Shown piece by piece: positions 26,370-34,034 of a stretch of DNA of 40,000 nt (positions are counted from its first letter, which is position 1; the number at the start of each line of letters is the position of its first letter). Below the pieces are notes generated by a model. The model had not been told where the DNA came from. It saw only the letters and a program-made list of their open reading frames with translations, and searched no databases. The DNA comes from Helicobacter sp. 12S02232-10. GTDB lineage: Bacteria; Campylobacterota; Campylobacteria; Campylobacterales; Helicobacteraceae. The stretch covers positions 109,800 through 149,799 of the forward strand of contig NZ_MLAQ01000001.1 of NCBI RefSeq assembly GCF_002272895.1, given 5' to 3'. A program made the translations under genes and the position numbers.

Positions 26370-26832
26370 AGGCGATTTTCCTAAAATGCTTGAAATACTG
26401 ATGAAAGAAGGAATTTTTAGCAACTACCTTAATGAAGCGATAACAAGTGACTCAAAGACTTCTTATAAGCTTCTTTTTATAGGTTTTACTGGGGGCTTTG
26501 ATTTTCCAAAAGAGAGTATTTGCAATGATGATTTATACAAACACGGATTAGTAGCTTTGTTTGCTTATAAAACCATCCATATAGTTTGCATCGGTTGCAC
26601 AAATATGACTTTTGAAAAGTTTAGAGAAATCATTTTACAACCAACTAAAAAAAGAGAAGCCACGATTAAAAGATATTTCAATGCATTCCATCAAAAACAC
26701 GATGACAAAGTTTTAAGAACTCAAGAGATACAAGCCTTAATTAAGCACCATAGCAAAATCTACCCTCAATTTTTAGAGCTTTTTGAAACCTTGATACAAT
26801 CGGATAAGCTAGATAAGTTAAATAATAATTGA
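26353..26832 (+). CDS. phage hypothetical protein (159 aa)
   Basis: Overlaps the upstream ORF by 17 nt and has a GGAG RBS. The C-terminal 96 codons are duplicated exactly at 35367..35657. Its last 30 nt form part of the inverted repeat. Confidence 0.6.
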   Translation: MHSMIKGDFPKMLEILMKEGIFSNYLNEAITSDSKTSYKLLFIGFTGGFDFPKESICNDDLYKHGLVALFAYKTIHIVCIGCTNMTFEKFREIILQPTKKREATIKRYFNAFHQKHDDKVLRTQEIQALIKHHSKIYPQFLELFETLIQSDKLDKLNNN

Positions 26833-27027
26833 CTTTTAAAGGAGTAATTAAGGAAAGTAGTGTATAATTTTATCGCCCCTCGTTCGTAGCGGGGGGCAAG
26901 ACCAAATTAAAGGACCTGCGATGTGCACCAAACATCGGAAAGCCTTTAAGAAATTATACATCAAATTTAAAATATTTGGTATAAAAATTATCTTAAAGGC
27001 TAAGAGGGGTTAATCCCCTCCATCCTT
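26803..27027. repeat. inverted-repeat module, left copy (IR-L)
   Basis: The reverse complement of 33815..34034 aligns with near-identical flanks and an unrelated ~50-bp core. Hairpins at 26875-26897, 26919-26937 and 27004-27020. Confidence 0.9.
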
Positions 27028-27045
27028 TAATATATGGTTTTTCTT
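26875..27045 (+). ncRNA. candidate structured RNA / late-operon leader (copy 1)
   Basis: Perfect TATAAT at 26863-26868 places a start near 26875, exactly at the first GC-rich hairpin (GCCCCTCG-N7-CGGGGGGC), and two further hairpins follow. The 3' end is uncertain, and the transcript may read through into 27154. Confidence 0.35.
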
Positions 27046-27153
27046 CCCCTCCCCTTTTCAAACCTTTATTTAATCATCTTCAGTATTATTTTTATATTTA
27101 TTTGTAATACTATGGTATTATTTTAATCATAAAAAATAATACTAGGATTTTGA

Positions 27154-27447
27154 ATGTCTGAAATTTATAACAATAAAGAAACTCAAAGCGATATCCAAAA
27201 AAACTCAATTGAATATCCTGAGATGAAAATAGACAGCAAGCTAAAAAAGGCACTCGAGATTAAAAAAGAGCTTGAAAAAGAAGAGGACCCCACTCAAAAT
27301 CAAGATTCAGAAGTGCAAACCCCCGCTTTTGAAGATAGTAAAGCCCCTTTTTTTATTTTAGGAGCTACATTTTTAGCCGTGGTAGCTTTTATTTTAAGTC
27401 CAAAAATTATTAAATTGTTTGAAAAAGGCAGAAGTAATGAGGAATGA
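27154..27447 (+). CDS. phage membrane protein (C-terminal TM)
   Basis: 97 aa with a charged N-terminal half and then a TM helix (FFILGATFLAVVAFIL). Confidence 0.6.
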   Translation: MSEIYNNKETQSDIQKNSIEYPEMKIDSKLKKALEIKKELEKEEDPTQNQDSEVQTPAFEDSKAPFFILGATFLAVVAFILSPKIIKLFEKGRSNEE

Positions 27448-28033
27448 AATGGAAAACGGGGCGATAAATGAAGAAAAAATCCCCGATTTTGTAAATTTCG
27501 ATAAAAATACAAGCGAATCAGCTAAAAAAGAGGATTCTAAGGGTTTTGAAGCATCAGGCTTTAAACTGTTTCAAATGAAGTTAGATGATTTAGCTACCTT
27601 AGCAAAGCCTTACGCCCCCTCAAAATCCCACGATACGCTTGTAAAAATGGGTAAAAAGAAACTCATTGCCATCATTCAAGCTAAATCAGATAATACACAA
27701 GAGGTTAATAATGTCTCAAATAATATTAATAATCTTGAAAACCTTGTTAAATCCTTCCTACAAGCCTGTGATGAATTTAAAAAAGAACGCGATAAAGAAC
27801 CCAATAACACCGCCCTTAAAGCAACGATTGAAAATAATGTGCATCCTGCTTTTGGGAATGGGGCTATTGCTTCCGTTGATTCTACTTTTGTGGCTAGGAT
27901 TATTGTTATATGCGGGCTTCTATACATTGCTACAGATTCCTTTTTTGGTATTAAAAACGTTGTTAATGCCTATAAAAATTATTTGTCAAAAAAGAAAGCT
28001 AGCAAAGCTAAAGAGAGTGCAAATGCAAGCTAA
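27419..28033 (+). CDS. phage membrane-anchored protein (coiled-coil plus C-terminal TM)
   Basis: The track start is a TTG. The ATG at 27437 (11-nt overlap with the upstream stop) is more likely. C-terminal TM (ARIIVICGLLYIATDSFFGI) and a K-rich tail. Confidence 0.6.
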   Translation: MKKAEVMRNEMENGAINEEKIPDFVNFDKNTSESAKKEDSKGFEASGFKLFQMKLDDLATLAKPYAPSKSHDTLVKMGKKKLIAIIQAKSDNTQEVNNVSNNINNLENLVKSFLQACDEFKKERDKEPNNTALKATIENNVHPAFGNGAIASVDSTFVARIIVICGLLYIATDSFFGIKNVVNAYKNYLSKKKASKAKESANAS

Positions 28034-28718
28034 ATTTAATACTTTTCATACAATTATGGGTAAAAAGGGCTATGGCAAAAGTTCGCTATGTGATATTTTG
28101 CTAATTTTGAATAACCGCCCTGCCTTGATTTTAGATACTACAAACGGCTTTCCACCCTTAGGAAAAAACCGCCTTTTTTTCGATGATATGGAAGAGCTAA
28201 ATCTTTATCTACAGCTACATTACAAAGAATTCATCAGCAAAAAACAGCAATTAATCCTCCAAACCAGAGACCCCGAGCAGTTTGAAGAGCTTTGCATTAC
28301 AGCTTATAAGTGTTCTAAAATTAGTTTGTTTATTGATGAAGTTGATTTTTATTGCGGGGCGAGTTTATCTAAAAAAAGTGCGTTCTACGATATTATCCAT
28401 ACAGGACGCCACCAAGAAATTGACCTTTATACAGCCAGCAGGCGACCAGCTAATATTAGCAGGGATTTGACCAGCCAGACCGATATTTTTTATCTCACAA
28501 TGACCACAGAAAACAGAGATTTTGACTACATTAAGCAAGCTTTTGGCGAAGATGTCAGCGATAAAATCAAGACTATCAAGCCATTTCATTTTTTAGTTAT
28601 CGACAAAACAAAAACGAATGCAGATGGCAGTAATCCCATCAACTTGCTTATTACTAAAAAAGAACAATTGGAATCAATTTATCGCTTAAATCTAAAAAAG
28701 GAGAGCAAAAATGATTGA
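28023..28718 (+). CDS. P-loop NTPase, putative genome-packaging ATPase (A32/P9-like; Zot-like not excluded)
   Basis: Walker A MGKKGYGKSS 10 aa from the ATG at 28023, Walker B SLFIDEVD, then HTGRHQEIDLYTASRRP. No TM segment. The 27666 track start only adds an out-of-context overlap with the previous gene. Confidence 0.7.
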   Translation: MQAKFNTFHTIMGKKGYGKSSLCDILLILNNRPALILDTTNGFPPLGKNRLFFDDMEELNLYLQLHYKEFISKKQQLILQTRDPEQFEELCITAYKCSKISLFIDEVDFYCGASLSKKSAFYDIIHTGRHQEIDLYTASRRPANISRDLTSQTDIFYLTMTTENRDFDYIKQAFGEDVSDKIKTIKPFHFLVIDKTKTNADGSNPINLLITKKEQLESIYRLNLKKESKND

Positions 28719-28800
28719 TAAAAAACTTGTGTTATCTACCATAGCAGGGCTTATTATCGGGCGTTTGATTGGGAAATATATCCCATCTTTGAAAGTTTAA
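28711..28800 (+). CDS. 29-aa single-TM peptide
   Basis: AGGAG RBS, ATG overlapping the ATPase stop (ATGATTGA). MIDKKLVLSTIAGLIIGRLIGKYIPSLKV. Below the ORF-track length cutoff, found by hand. Confidence 0.5.
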   Translation: MIDKKLVLSTIAGLIIGRLIGKYIPSLKV

Positions 28801-33192: not shown

Positions 33193-33302
33193 AGATTAAA
33201 GGCAATCTAATGACCCGTGTAAGAGGATACACAGCAAAATCTAGAACTGTAGGCACCTATCTAAGAAGAAAACCTAAGAAAAAATCTAAAAAGAGAAGAT
33301 AA
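33189..33302 (+). CDS. 37-aa highly basic peptide
   Basis: ATGA overlap with the upstream stop. MKIKGNLMTRVRGYTAKSRTVGTYLRRKPKKKSKKRR has about 17 K/R in 37 residues. Found by hand. Confidence 0.45.
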   Translation: MKIKGNLMTRVRGYTAKSRTVGTYLRRKPKKKSKKRR

Positions 33303-33304
33303 CA

Positions 33305-33685
33305 ATGGGTTGGTTAAGTGATATTTTTAAGCCTGTCACTGATGTAGCAAATAAGGCGATTGATTTAATCCCTACTGAAGAGGGGCGATTAAAGGCTAGA
33401 GCAGAGTTTTTAAAGACTATCGCAGAGGCACAAAGCAAACTAGATTCTGAGATAACAAAGCGTCAAGCCTCTGATATGGCTTCAGATAGCTTTTTAGCTA
33501 AGAATATTCGCCCTGCCGTGTGTATTGTTTTCACAATTTATATTTTTATCCTGCCTTTTTTGCACGATATCCCTACCCCGATAATGGATTTATATACAAA
33601 CATTGCTATCTCAGTGTATGGATTTTATTTTGGAAGTATGAGTTTAGAAAAAATCGCACCTTTATTTTTTAAAAAGAAGGATTGA
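33305..33685 (+). CDS. holin-like protein (3TM, GTA-holin type)
   Basis: 126 aa. Soluble N-terminus with a helical K/E segment, then (NIRPAVCIVFTIYIFILPFL) and further TM helices. The layout recalls the 3TM holin family (from memory). Confidence 0.5.
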   Translation: MGWLSDIFKPVTDVANKAIDLIPTEEGRLKARAEFLKTIAEAQSKLDSEITKRQASDMASDSFLAKNIRPAVCIVFTIYIFILPFLHDIPTPIMDLYTNIAISVYGFYFGSMSLEKIAPLFFKKKD

Positions 33686-33686
33686 A

Positions 33687-33803
33687 ATGTTTTGTTTGAT
33701 TTTATTCAGTGTATTGACCGCGTCAATGGTTATTACTTGCGTGGGTTGTTGTTGTGAATGTTATTATAAAAAATGTGTTAAAAAACCCCATAAAAGGGGT
33801 TAA
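33687..33803 (+). CDS. 38-aa Cys-rich hydrophobic peptide
   Basis: AAGGA RBS. MFCLILFSVLTASMVITCVGCCCECYYKKCVKKPHKRG is one TM helix, then seven Cys and a basic tail. The stop lies inside a terminator hairpin. Found by hand. Confidence 0.45.
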   Translation: MFCLILFSVLTASMVITCVGCCCECYYKKCVKKPHKRG

Positions 33804-33966
33804 ATATCATTCATAAGGAAGGAGGGGCTAACCCCTCTTCATCCTAAAAATAATTTCTACGCCAAATATTTTAAATTTGATGTATAATTCTTTTAGGATT
33901 TTATGATGCTTTTCCATCATCAATCCTTTCAATGATATTGCCCCCCGCTACAATCGAGGGGCGATA
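33780..33966 (-). ncRNA. candidate structured sRNA (copy 2), convergent with the late operon
   Basis: Minus-strand TATAAT at 33969-33974, three hairpins, then the 33784-33801 terminator with a T-run. The predicted length is ~180 nt. Confidence 0.4.
33784..33801. terminator. bidirectional intrinsic terminator hairpin
   Basis: AACCCC-ATAAAA-GGGGTT. On the minus strand it is followed by TTTT, and on the plus strand it ends the late operon. Confidence 0.5.
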
Positions 33967-34034
33967 AAATTATACACTACTTTCCTTAAATATTCCTTTA
34001 AAAGTCAATTATTATTTAACTTATCTAGCTTATC
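33815..34034. repeat. inverted-repeat module, right copy (IR-R)
   Basis: Reverse complement of IR-L (see 26803..27027). Hairpins at 33822-33837, 33895-33927 and 33940-33962. Confidence 0.9.

What the first reader, a model, noticed from the sequence alone, without database searches (positions are those of the whole stretch)
26803..34034. Pair of ~225-bp inverted modules brackets the entire late/structural operon
Seen: 26803-27027 and the reverse complement of 33815-34034 align end to end. The outer ~95 bp include the last 30 nt of the 159-aa ORF (GATAAGCTAGATAAGTTAAATAATAATTGA), and these plus the inner ~80 bp are near-identical, while a ~50-bp core is unrelated. The two copies face inward across 6.8 kb that holds all virion, packaging and lysis genes. 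Inference: candidate functions are (a) twin promoter/leader or antisense-RNA cassettes controlling late expression from both ends, (b) substrates for inversion of the structural module by homologous recombination, or (c) boundary elements (terminators or insulators) between the early and late halves of the circular genome. I recognise no known RNA or repeat family here.
Basis: seen in the sequence. Interest (0 to 1): 0.7.

Follow-up and report, generated by a model that had tools for sequence, protein, structure and literature searches.

The report
Paired toxin-antitoxin cassettes flanking prophage genes
The two inverted 225-bp modules are copies of a known Helicobacter "addiction" cassette (a 30-amino-acid AapA-like toxin gene silenced by an antisense RNA) sitting at both ends of the structural genes of a small PRD1-like prophage, so the repeat is real but belongs to a known kind.

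Summary
Each module is a compact type I toxin-antitoxin cassette of the Helicobacter aapA/IsoA kind.

Each cassette has these parts:
- a TATAAT promoter and a GC-rich 5' hairpin;
- an AAAGGA Shine-Dalgarno (SD) site and a 30-codon ORF similar to H. pylori AapA1 (40% identity; 0 of 20,000 shuffles score as well);
- a second TATAAT on the opposite strand, inside the x-Leu-Tyr codons, exactly where the IsoA1 promoter sits in H. pylori;
- a long-distance helix that pairs the SD with a UCCUUU just after the stop codon.

Four divergent copies keep this fold (90% of cells paired; 24 of 63 pairs compensatory). A model built only from the window copies finds genuine aapA1 as its best hit in an H. pylori locus.

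The "unrelated core" is the part of the mRNA that the predicted antisense RNA would cover around the ribosome site. The "outer arm" is promoter plus hairpin, kept alike within each element.

The bracketed 6.8 kb is the late operon of an integrated prophage with a double jelly-roll capsid protein, in the chromosome of an iguana Helicobacter. A related element shows the same bracket.

No expression, toxicity or inversion data exist. Verdict: a new member of a known family in an unusual paired arrangement.

The parts
26803..26873 (+). M1 upstream/promoter region. It overlaps the last 30 nt of the 159-aa ORF. The -10 box TATAAT is at 26863-26868, inside TGTATAAT 26861-26868.
   Evidence: 97-100% identical to the M2 counterpart. 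Six of the eight TGTATAAT in the 40-kb window lie in the three modules. No -35 box is expected in Helicobacter (general knowledge), and the E. coli-type scan did not call it.
26874..27042 (+). M1 predicted aapA-like toxin mRNA: 5' GC hairpin 26875-26897, SD AAAGGA 26909-26914, anti-SD UCCUUU 27023-27028, outer helix closing at about 27040.
   Evidence: MFE -69.4 kcal/mol, z -8.1. SD paired to anti-SD. Covariation across four distinct copies. CM R1 score 195.9 bits.
26921..27013 (+). M1 toxin ORF, 30 aa: MCTKHRKAFKKLYIKFKIFGIKIILKAKRG.
   Evidence: ORF list. 40% identity and 63% positives to H. pylori AapA1 over the full length, E 6e-7. 0 of 20,000 shuffles reach the score.
26870..26946 (-). 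M1 predicted IsoA-like antisense antitoxin RNA, about 75-80 nt. Its -10 box TATAAT is at 26958-26953 on the - strand, inside codons Lys11-Leu12-Tyr13.
   Evidence: TGTATAAT on the - strand at 26953-26960. The RNA folds into two stem-loops with an anti-SD linker. The box sits in the same place in genuine H. pylori aapA1 (ACA TTA TAC; PMC5416894). The ends are inferred, not mapped.
33802..33976 (-). M2 promoter (-10 TATAAT 33974-33969) and aapA-like mRNA 33963-33802: SD 33929-33924, anti-SD about 33819-33813.
   Evidence: MFE fold z -7.2 with the same architecture. CM R1 score 157.7 bits.
33828..33920 (-). M2 toxin ORF: MMEKHHKILKELYIKFKIFGVEIIFRMKRG, 30 aa. It is 29 aa if the second ATG, which has the better SD spacing, is used.
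33891..33967 (+). M2 predicted IsoA-like antisense RNA. Its -10 box TATAAT is at 33883-33888.
   Evidence: z -4.2, two stem-loops.
35906..36130 (-). M3, the third module: mRNA 36067-35906, ORF 36024-35932, sense -10 box 36078-36073, antisense -10 box 35987-35992. Its transcribed part is identical to M2 and its upstream flank is more diverged.
27043..27153 (+). Spacer between M1 and the first late gene. It holds the late operon's own promoter-like region (TGGTATTAT) and AGTATTA/TAATACT motifs.
   Evidence: The last roughly 70 nt are conserved in L001 and L002, which read TTGACT-17 nt-TATTAT.
27154..33803 (+). Bracketed late/structural operon: packaging ATPase 28023-28718, double jelly-roll major capsid protein 28927-29901, several small membrane proteins, the phrog_3108 protein 32029-32565, holin 33305-33685.
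   Evidence: PHROG hits. Capsid-protein profile hits the STIV coat protein. AF2 pLDDT 82.6; Foldseek top hit PRD1 P3, E 1.7e-19, TM 0.71-0.74.
24042..26832 (.). Integrase (24042-25112, - strand) and early genes: a DnaD/replication-initiator-like 245-aa protein, a 92-aa ORF and the 159-aa ORF.
   Evidence: Pfam Phage_integrase 4.5e-37 and Phage_int_SAM_6 3.6e-52. PHROG hits.
35099..36172 (.). Multiply deleted mini-copy of the element. It keeps short early-gene fragments, the late-operon start and end, and M3. M1 is missing, cut out between two AAATAATA repeats.
   Evidence: blastn self-comparison map; repeats D1-D6 and I5.

Best explanation
Each module is a compact aapA/IsoA-type type I toxin-antitoxin cassette.

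Shown by sequence and comparison:
- a constitutive-looking TATAAT promoter;
- an mRNA of about 170 nt that starts with a GC-rich hairpin;
- an AAAGGA Shine-Dalgarno (SD) site and a 30-codon ORF for a cationic AapA-like peptide;
- a convergent TATAAT on the other strand, inside the x-Leu-Tyr codons, placed to make an antisense RNA of about 80 nt covering the 5' UTR, the SD and the first 8-9 codons;
- a conserved, covarying long-distance helix that pairs the SD with a UCCUUU just after the stop codon.

Inferred by analogy with H. pylori aapA1/IsoA1:
- the full-length mRNA is stable but untranslatable because the SD is locked;
- 3' trimming frees the SD;
- the short-lived antisense RNA then pairs with the 5' region through loop-loop contacts, blocks the ribosome and triggers RNase III cleavage;
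- if the DNA is lost, the antisense RNA decays first and the toxin kills or arrests the cell, which stabilises the prophage.

The anatomy of the inverted repeat follows from this. The outer arm is the promoter plus the 5' hairpin, which is also the antisense terminator hairpin. The inner arm is the C-terminal two thirds of the toxin ORF, including the antisense promoter. The diverged core is the antisense-target interface. M1 and M2 are therefore probably two non-cross-reacting cassettes.

Their outer arms are kept alike within an element by recombination (gene conversion). One cassette sits at each end of the late operon of an integrated PRD1/PM2-type prophage. A deleted remnant of a second copy kept only its cassette.
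For: - Peptide: same length as AapA1 and 40% identical over the whole length. The AapA1 sequence comes from PMC10537873. Shuffle tests: 0/20,000 for M1 and M2, 1/20,000 for L001-right, 146/20,000 for L001-left.
- Promoters: six of the eight TGTATAAT in the window are the sense and antisense boxes of the three modules.
- Antisense box position: it lies in xxA-TTA-TAC (x-Leu-Tyr) in all four distinct modules and in genuine H. pylori aapA1. That fits the silent TATAAT-to-TACAAG promoter knock-out described in PMC5416894.
- 5' UTR length: 47 nt here versus about 49 nt in aapA1.
- Fold: four independent MFE folds give one architecture with z scores of -5.9 to -8.1, with SD paired to anti-SD in each.
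- Covariation: on the CM alignment 89.6% of cells pair, against 41-52% when partners are slid. 24 of 63 pairs carry compensatory changes, and 0 of 500 shuffles reach this.
- Cross-family detection: CM R1, built only from M1 and M2, finds the real aapA1 locus as its best hit in the 8.5-kb H. pylori locus L012 (17.8 bits, E about 0.001). The aligned 5' hairpin, SD and ATG coincide. The second hit is the known ghost aapA2.
- Antisense shape: the predicted antisense RNAs fold into two stem-loops, as described for IsoA1 (PMC5416894).
- Specificity: core-only duplex energies are -74 to -92 kcal/mol for cognate pairs and -14 to -25 for the two modules of one element.
- Precedent: the family has already been reported near prophage genes in H. 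felis and H. bizzozeronii.
- Conserved bracket: the relative L001 (capsid protein 81% identical) has a different AapA-like module at each end of the same operon, again inverted.
Against: - No transcript, toxicity or antitoxin data exist for these copies. Transcript ends are inferred from promoter boxes and folds.
- Rfam, Pfam and NCBIfam return nothing. Family assignment therefore rests on one reference peptide, one reference locus and the published description.
- The CM hit on aapA1 is weak (E about 1e-3, rough calibration).
- The covariation alignment was fitted to the model and has only four distinct sequences.
- The mRNA is about 170 nt, not 250 nt. The very 5' hairpin is not part of the long-distance helix, unlike in aapA1.
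- The peptides are less hydrophobic than AapA1 (GRAVY of residues 9-28: 0.44-0.79 versus 1.24). Membrane toxicity is therefore not assured.
- The shared 5' hairpin region could allow some cross-pairing between M1 and M2 RNAs (full-length energies).
- A prophage-stabilising role is inference only.
Confidence: 0.85

Rival explanations
1. The modules exist mainly as homologous arms for inverting the 6.8-kb structural segment, a flip-flop that changes late-gene orientation or expression.
For: The outer arms are 102 nt long and 94% identical. Within an element the 5' hairpin is 92-96% identical, but only 48-56% between elements. Cores and 3' ends are more alike between elements than within them. 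This is the signature of gene conversion between the inverted arms. The Logan contigs L001 and L002 both break exactly k-1 = 30 nt into an inverted repeat at both ends of the operon. The inverted-repeat bracket is therefore conserved in three lineages.
Against: Every part of the arms is accounted for by cassette functions: promoter, hairpin, ORF and antisense promoter. No invertase gene is present; the only recombinase is a tyrosine integrase 1.7 kb away. The late operon carries its own promoter inside the invertible part, so flipping would not switch it on or off. A crossover in the inner arms would separate the covarying 5' and 3' strands of the long-distance helix. No inverted isomer has been observed, and no reads were available.
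Confidence: 0.06
2. The modules are twin regulatory cassettes (leader or antisense RNA) that control late-operon expression from both ends.
For: M1 lies directly upstream of the late operon and points the same way. M2 converges on its 3' end. Both contain promoters and predicted antisense RNAs.
Against: The antisense RNA overlaps only the module's own small ORF and 5' UTR. The M1 mRNA closes in a long helix followed by a U-run before the late promoter. A separate promoter-like region conserved in L001 and L002 lies between M1 and the first late gene. The mini-copy joins the 159-aa ORF tail directly to the late-gene start with M1 cleanly absent. The same cassette type occurs on H. pylori chromosomes with no phage genes nearby.
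Confidence: 0.04
3. The modules are boundary elements, that is terminators or insulators, between the early and late regions.
For: There are GC-rich hairpins at both edges. One terminator-like site is called at 33837-33822, and a canonical hairpin plus U-run lies at 33787-33815 at the M2 inner edge.
Against: No terminator-like site is called in M1. This reading does not explain the conserved 30-codon ORF, the paired promoters or the SD / anti-SD covariation.
Confidence: 0.04
4. The inverted repeats are the terminal repeats of a linear, protein-primed tectivirus-like genome of about 7 kb.
For: The capsid protein is PRD1-like. Tectiviruses have inverted terminal repeats (general knowledge). The relatives appear as contigs of about 7 kb with inverted ends.
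Against: The inverted identity at the contig ends is exactly 30 nt in both L001 and L002. That is the mark of a k=31 unitig break inside a longer repeat, not of genome termini. No family-B polymerase or terminal protein was found among the ORFs. The repeats lie inside an integrated element that has an integrase and a replication-initiator-like gene outside them. The mini-copy links early and late parts.
Confidence: 0.01

Closest known systems
aapA1/IsoA1 (and aapA3/IsoA3) type I toxin-antitoxin systems of Helicobacter pylori (Sharma et al. 2010; Arnion et al. 2017, PMC5416894; Masachis et al. 2019)
   Same: - Same genus.
- A 30-aa basic peptide with the shared M-x-(T)-K-H ... L-Y-x-K ... G-x-K ... 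K-R pattern.
- A 5' UTR of about 47-49 nt that starts with a GC hairpin, and an SD of AAAGGA(G).
- The antisense -10 box inside the x-Leu-Tyr codons, and an antisense RNA of about 80 nt with two stem-loops.
- The SD locked by a 3' anti-SD through a 5'-3' long-distance interaction.
- Cognate-only antisense specificity is reported for the family.
- The family has been reported next to prophage genes in H. felis and H. bizzozeronii.
   Different: - The mRNA is about 170 nt rather than 250 nt. The 3' UTR is about 30 nt rather than about 110 nt.
- The anti-SD follows a hairpin that contains the stop codon.
- The extreme 5' hairpin stays local instead of pairing with the 3' end.
- The peptide ends K-R-G and is less hydrophobic.
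- The cassettes occur as an inverted pair with diverged cores at both ends of a phage structural operon, with homogenised outer arms.
- Nothing has been tested experimentally.
hok/Sok of plasmid R1
   Same: It works the same way: a stable, folded, translationally inert toxin mRNA with 5'-3' end pairing, activation by 3' trimming, a short-lived cis-antisense RNA, and killing of cells that lose the element.
   Different: The peptide and RNA sequences are unrelated. Sok acts through the mok reading frame. hok/Sok is a plasmid or chromosomal system of enterobacteria.
Prophage-borne type I TA systems, such as yonT/SR6 and bsrG/SR4 on B. subtilis SPbeta and sprG1/SprF1 on an S. aureus prophage (PMC5848175, PMC10579593)
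   Same: A small membrane-type toxin with an antisense RNA, carried by a prophage and presumed to stabilise it.
   Different: They belong to other toxin families and use 3'-overlapping antisense RNAs. They are not arranged as an inverted pair bracketing the structural module.
PRD1/PM2-type (double jelly-roll capsid protein) membrane-containing phages and their integrated relatives
   Same: The bracketed operon encodes a PRD1-P3-like capsid protein, a packaging ATPase and many small membrane proteins. The element is about 10-11 kb and carries an integrase, as PM2-like prophages do.
   Different: Sequence relatives are very few: 3 in the word-indexed search and 18 in 1.84 billion representative proteins. 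Those phage groups are not known for toxin-antitoxin cassettes flanking the late operon.

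Membership tests
aapA/IsoA type I toxin-antitoxin | A small ORF of about 30 aa whose product resembles AapA peptides | tested here: met
   ORFs of 30, 30, 30 and 31 aa. M1 is 40% identical to AapA1 with 63% positives over the full length, E 6e-7. Shuffle tests give 0/20,000, 0/20,000, 1/20,000 and 146/20,000. No curated Pfam or NCBIfam model exists to confirm this.
aapA/IsoA type I toxin-antitoxin | Own promoter, a short 5' UTR with a conserved SD, and start and stop codons | tested here: met
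   TATAAT lies 6-7 nt before the hairpin in all three window copies. SD AAAGGA lies 6 nt before the ATG. The 5' UTR is 47 nt, against about 49 nt in H. pylori aapA1. The promoter region of the L001 copies lies beyond the contig ends.
aapA/IsoA type I toxin-antitoxin | A promoter for a cis-antisense RNA on the opposite strand inside the ORF, giving an RNA of about 80 nt over the 5' UTR and start | tested here: met
   An antisense TATAAT lies within xxA-TTA-TAC (x-Leu-Tyr) in all four distinct modules and in genuine aapA1. This agrees with the silent TATAAT-to-TACAAG mutant in PMC5416894. Only sequence features were tested; expression was not.
aapA/IsoA type I toxin-antitoxin | An mRNA fold with a 5'-3' long-distance interaction that sequesters the SD | tested here: met
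   SD is paired with anti-SD in all four MFE folds, z -5.9 to -8.1. The two long-distance helices (16 pairs) include 6 pairs with compensatory changes. Variant: the first hairpin is not part of the interaction and the 3' UTR is short (compare).
aapA/IsoA type I toxin-antitoxin | The 5' UTR and the antisense RNA each form two complementary stem-loops for kissing-loop pairing | tested here: met
   Predicted folds of the four antisense RNAs show two stem-loops separated by a linker that contains the anti-SD. This is prediction only, and z scores are weak for two of the four.
aapA/IsoA type I toxin-antitoxin | RNA-level homology to bona fide loci | tested here: inconclusive
   CM R1, built from M1 and M2 only, ranks aapA1 first in H. 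pylori locus L012 (17.8 bits, E about 0.001) and ghost aapA2 second. The aligned 5' hairpin, SD and ATG coincide. The score is low and the calibration rough. Rfam has no family for it.
aapA/IsoA type I toxin-antitoxin | Peptide toxicity, neutralisation by the antisense RNA, 3' processing and RNase III cleavage | not testable with these tools
   These need expression and genetics.
Site-specific invertible segments (Hin/Gin/Cin type, shufflons) | A dedicated invertase next to short inverted crossover sites | tested here: not met
   No serine invertase is found among the ORFs. The only recombinase is a tyrosine integrase at 24042-25112. The arms are 100-225 nt of cassette sequence.
Tectivirus-type inverted terminal repeats | Repeats at the ends of a linear genome that encodes a protein-primed family-B polymerase | tested here: not met
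   No polymerase hit is found. The repeats are internal to an integrated element. The contig-end identity of exactly 30 nt is an assembly-break signature.
Double jelly-roll capsid (PRD1/PM2-like) phage, as context of the bracketed operon | A double jelly-roll major capsid protein plus a packaging ATPase | tested here: met
   AF2 pLDDT 82.6. Foldseek finds PRD1 P3 at E 1.7e-19 (TM 0.71-0.74) and STIV at TM 0.71. The sequence profile hits STIV coat protein at E 7e-4. The ATPase matches phrog_2666 at 1.2e-22.

The most novel reading that the evidence does not exclude
The inverted pair may be a conserved, selected architecture of a previously undescribed group of double jelly-roll prophages in Helicobacter. 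Two mutually non-cross-reacting toxin-antitoxin cassettes would guard both ends of the virion module. Their promoter and hairpin arms would be kept identical by ongoing recombination, which would also flip the structural module between two orientations. Alternatively, the phage may use the toxins itself, for example for exclusion of other phages or for membrane priming before lysis.
Probability: 0.15. Interest if true: 0.6.

Novelty: new member of a known kind. Interest (0 to 1): 0.35.

Why it matters
The finding turns an unexplained 225-bp inverted repeat into an annotated, testable pair of toxin-antitoxin cassettes. It also extends the aapA/IsoA family to a compact 170-nt form in a reptile-associated Helicobacter.

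The natural set of four diverged copies gives covariation support for the SD / anti-SD lock. Until now that lock was supported mainly by H. pylori genetics.

The arrangement is a convenient system for two questions. How is antisense specificity encoded, given the same promoter and hairpin but different cores? Do such cassettes stabilise prophages, given that one survives as the last intact part of a decayed copy?

It also flags a rare PRD1/PM2-type prophage lineage in Helicobacter. Practically, small cassettes like these are not annotated by standard pipelines and break short-read assemblies at exactly these points.

Tried and rejected
- Rfam at gathering threshold on the whole window, and at E up to 10 on M1: only chance hits such as lsy-6 and snoRNAs.
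- Pfam and NCBIfam on the peptides: nothing.
- tblastn of the M1 peptide against PLSDB plasmids and INPHARED phages: no match. The query is short and of low complexity.
- The search for homologous proteins and the search for related loci refuse 30-aa queries or the peptide alignment.
- A strict codon-pattern scan matches all five known copies. In GTDB genomes it found only two chance hits with internal stops. It found nothing in JGI metagenomes or IMG/VR. The source genome itself did not turn up in the genome collection.
- IMG/VR has no relative of the capsid protein and no copy of the module's 5' part.
- The 159-aa ORF has no homologue apart from its own truncated copy. The outer flanks of the L001 modules could therefore not be recovered.
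- The E. coli-type promoter and terminator scan is uninformative for Helicobacter promoters, which lack a -35 box.
- A MAFFT-only alignment gave an incoherent consensus fold, because the cores do not align by sequence. It was replaced by a CM-guided alignment.
- Single-sequence AF2 of the capsid protein failed with pLDDT 34. It was redone with a 19-sequence alignment.
- No att-like direct repeat of 9-10 nt or more was found at the element boundaries.
- The idea that M2 captured the tail of the 159-aa ORF was dropped. M3 carries a diverged version of the same upstream sequence. The ORF simply runs into the cassette's upstream region.

Full report
**1. Observation**

The inverted repeat exists where stated. 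The repeat finder reports arms 26803-26904 / 33933-34034 (102 nt, 94%) and 26930-27017 / 33824-33911 (88 nt, 77%). blastn joins them into a single 225-nt inverted match at 82.7% identity, E 6e-58. The 30 nt that end the 159-aa ORF (26353-26832) are part of both copies.

A third copy, M3, lies on the minus strand at about 35906-36130 and is 98-100% identical to M2. M3 belongs to a roughly 1-kb multiply deleted second copy of the whole element (35099-36172). That mini-copy keeps fragments of early genes, the start and end of the late operon, and M3.

**2. What each module contains**

Read 5' to 3' on its own strand, each module has the following parts:
- an AT-rich upstream region;
- a TATAAT box;
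- 6-7 nt later, a GC-rich hairpin (8-10 bp in the folds);
- a short linker and an AAAGGA Shine-Dalgarno (SD) site;
- an ATG six nt further on;
- a 30-codon ORF whose stop codon sits in a second GC hairpin;
- a UCCUUU immediately after that hairpin.

The ORFs encode MCTKHRKAFKKLYIKFKIFGIKIILKAKRG (M1) and MMEKHHKILKELYIKFKIFGVEIIFRMKRG (M2 and M3).

On the opposite strand there is a second TATAAT, formed by the codons xxA-TTA-TAC (x-Leu-Tyr). Six of the eight TGTATAAT octamers in the 40-kb window are these sense and antisense boxes of the three modules. About 2.6 octamers are expected by chance, and no shuffle reaches eight. An RNA started 6-8 nt after the antisense box and ending at the GC hairpin would be 75-80 nt long. 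It would cover the first 8-9 codons, the SD and the whole 5' UTR. It folds into two stem-loops joined by a linker that carries the anti-SD.

**3. Relatives**

The capsid-like 324-aa protein of the bracketed operon identifies the source as Helicobacter sp. 12S02232-10. This is an isolate from a rhinoceros iguana (PMC5566214). Only two relatives appear among 5.8 billion proteins, both on Logan contigs of about 7 kb.

Contig L001 (capsid protein 81% identical) carries the same operon. At each end it has an inward-pointing module of the same design but a very different sequence. The ORFs are MKNTHKKTLRILYLKIHVSWYCITIELKRG and MSRKHRRILRELYFEISYFGIKIAFKIKWGR. L006 is the same left end from a second sample.

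L001 and L002 both end in exactly 30 nt of inverted identity, which is k-1 for a k=31 assembly. They therefore break at the inner edge of a longer inverted repeat rather than at genome ends. The inverted bracket around the operon is thus conserved in three lineages. In two of them it is made of these modules. L002 has no module inside the contig, and what lies outside its ends is unknown.

**4. RNA structure**

The four distinct modules each fold on their own into one architecture:
- a 5' hairpin;
- a long-distance helix in which the linker and SD pair with the sequence just after the stop-codon hairpin, so that AAAGGA pairs with UCCUUU;
- inside that helix, a hairpin pairing the AUG with the His-5 CAU codon, a long hairpin over the middle of the ORF, and the stop-codon hairpin.

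The z scores are -5.9 to -8.1.

A covariance model built from M1 and M2 alone finds both L001 modules, at 89 and 34 bits. On that alignment 89.6% of cells form standard pairs, against 41-52% when partners are slid by 1-3 columns. 24 of 63 pairs show compensatory double changes, and no shuffle out of 500 reaches the observed values. The two long-distance helices include six such pairs.

Two caveats apply. There are only four distinct sequences, and the alignment was fitted to the model.

**5. Comparison with the known family**

*Peptide.* H. pylori AapA1 is [30 protein letters not shown] (PMC10537873). The M1 peptide aligns to it over the full length at 40% identity and 63% positives, E 6e-7. 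Composition-preserving shuffles reach the observed score 0/20,000 times for M1 and for M2, 1/20,000 for L001-right and 146/20,000 for L001-left.

*Published features.* Arnion et al. 2017 (PMC5416894) describe the family as follows:
- a 30-aa toxin;
- a stable 250-nt mRNA whose 5' UTR is locked by pairing with its 3' end;
- activation by removal of about 25-30 nt from the 3' end;
- an antisense RNA, IsoA1, with a short half-life (15 min);
- two stem-loops in the 5' UTR and in IsoA1 for kissing-loop recognition;
- RNase III cleavage of the resulting duplex;
- cognate-only specificity;
- occurrence near prophage genes in H. felis and H. bizzozeronii.

*A genuine locus for direct comparison.* I recovered a real aapA1 locus, L012 (a 1.69-Mb Helicobacter contig), with a back-translated pattern. 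It shows the same layout: a -10 box, a 5' hairpin CCCCCAUAAG...UUAUGGGG, SD AAAGGAG, a 5' UTR of about 49 nt, and the antisense TATAAT in ACA-TTA-TAC (Thr-Leu-Tyr). That position matches the silent TATAAT-to-TACAAG promoter mutant of the paper.

The model built only from the window copies picks this locus as its best hit in the 8.5 kb (17.8 bits, E about 0.001), and the aligned 5' hairpin, SD and ATG coincide. Its second hit is the known ghost aapA2.

*Differences.* The mRNA here is about 170 nt, with a 3' UTR of about 30 nt instead of about 110 nt. The first hairpin is not drawn into the 5'-3' pairing as it is in aapA1. The peptides end in K-R-G and are less hydrophobic. Rfam, Pfam and NCBIfam have no model that reports these cassettes.

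**6. Why the repeat looks the way it does**

Segment by segment, M1 compared with M2 gives:

| Segment | Identity |
|---|---|
| Upstream region | 97% |
| -10 box to transcription start | 100% |
| 5' hairpin | 92% |
| Linker plus SD | 61% |
| Start hairpin and codons 1-9 | 61% |
| Codons 10-23, including the antisense promoter | 90% |
| Codons 24-30 plus stop hairpin | 78% |
| 3' strand of the long helix | 68% |

The "inner arm" is the toxin's C-terminal part. The "unrelated core" is the region where the antisense RNA meets the ribosome-binding site, and its partner strand beyond 27020 co-varies with it.

For the core alone, computed duplex energies are -74 to -92 kcal/mol for cognate pairs. 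For the two modules of one element they are only -14 to -25 kcal/mol. M1 and M2 are therefore probably independent, non-cross-protecting cassettes. This is an inference, consistent with the cognate-only behaviour reported for H. pylori.

The 5' hairpin is 92-96% identical between the two modules of one element but only 48-56% between elements. Cores and 3' ends are more alike between elements (M1 versus L001-right, 66-67%) than within them. This pattern indicates gene conversion between the inverted outer arms in each lineage.

**7. Context**

The bracketed 6.8 kb does hold virion, packaging and lysis genes:
- an ATPase matching phrog_2666 (E 1.2e-22), a holin (phrog_3427) and a phrog_3108 protein;
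- a capsid protein whose 19-sequence profile hits the STIV coat protein;
- an AF2 model of that capsid protein (pLDDT 82.6) that matches PRD1 P3 at E 1.7e-19, TM 0.71-0.74.

To the left lie a tyrosine integrase and a DnaD/replication-initiator-like gene. The flanks are ordinary chromosomal genes. This is an integrated PRD1/PM2-type prophage, not a circular genome with two halves.

The late operon has its own promoter-like region between M1 and the first gene, conserved in L001 and L002. In the mini-copy M1 is missing, cut out between two AAATAATA repeats, while M3 is intact.

**8. Mechanism and rivals**

The best-supported reading (confidence 0.85) is a set of type I toxin-antitoxin cassettes that work like aapA1/IsoA1 and, more distantly, like hok/Sok. 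Sequence features, fold and covariation are shown. Transcripts, toxicity, 3' activation, RNase III cleavage and prophage stabilisation are inferred.

Inversion of the operon through the outer arms is possible and would leave both cassettes intact. A crossover in the inner arms would split the covarying strands of the long helix. No invertase gene and no isomer data exist, so I treat inversion as a possible by-product rather than the function.

Control of late expression, insulator function and tectivirus-type terminal repeats each fail on specific points, set out under the rival explanations.

**9. Verdict**

Novelty: a new member of a known kind. It has an unusual and apparently conserved inverted-pair arrangement, and it sits on a rare double jelly-roll prophage. 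Interest is moderate to low (0.35).

Noticed in passing
window 24042-36172 (capsid protein 28927-29901, ATPase 28023-28718): The element is an integrated phage of about 11-12 kb with a PRD1-P3-like double jelly-roll capsid protein, carried by a reptile-associated Helicobacter. Relatives are very rare: 3 proteins in the 5.8-billion-sequence search and 18 at E<1e-3 among 1.84 billion representatives. 15 of the 19 aligned members match the uncharacterised phrog_28223.
   Followed up: partly
window 35099-36172: There is a roughly 1-kb miniature second copy of the element, made by at least five deletions. It keeps an intact toxin-antitoxin cassette (M3), a 96-aa fragment of the 159-aa ORF (annotated BKH41_00745) and the late-operon start and end. 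It could be a decayed tandem copy or a satellite-like remnant.
   Followed up: partly
window 26819-26826 and 27134-27141; junction at 35629-35637: In the mini-copy M1 is absent exactly between two AAATAATA octamers, a 315-bp difference. It is unclear whether this is a microhomology deletion or the empty site of a cassette insertion.
   Followed up: no
window 34496-34601 and 34610-34690; ORF 34695-34892: Two direct repeats and one inverted copy of about GCGTCTTTTAAGTCTTAA are followed by a very AT-rich stretch, a 65-aa ORF and a hairpin terminator (34903-34935). This looks like an origin or regulatory region between M2 and the mini-copy.
   Followed up: no
window 27080-27150; L001 240-350; L002 1-270: Repeated AGTATTA / TAATACT motifs surround a promoter-like site (TTGACT-17 nt-TATTAT in L001 and L002) just upstream of the first late gene. 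These are candidate operator sites for a late-gene regulator. In L002 the motif array is much longer and is part of the inverted repeat.
   Followed up: partly
modules M1/M2/M3, L001 ends, L012 4737-4749: In every copy, and in H. pylori aapA1, the start codon AUG pairs with the His-5 codon CAU in a small hairpin. The conserved Lys-His of the peptide may be constrained by RNA structure as much as by protein function. The conserved Leu-Tyr likewise doubles as the antisense -10 box.
   Followed up: partly
window 25143-25250 and 35099-35144: A 25-nt inverted repeat (TTTAGTTATGAAAACCATAATTTTC / GAAAACTAGAGTTTTCATAACTAAA) lies between the integrase and the early genes. Its left arm region recurs at the start of the mini-copy. 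It may be an operator or an att-related site. No att-like direct repeats were found at the element boundaries.
   Followed up: partly
L012 6987-7093 (- strand): The H. pylori locus fetched for comparison also holds the ghost aapA2 copy (ORF reduced to M-E-N-stop), with its hairpin, SD and antisense box still recognisable. This matches the published description of locus II.
   Followed up: yes
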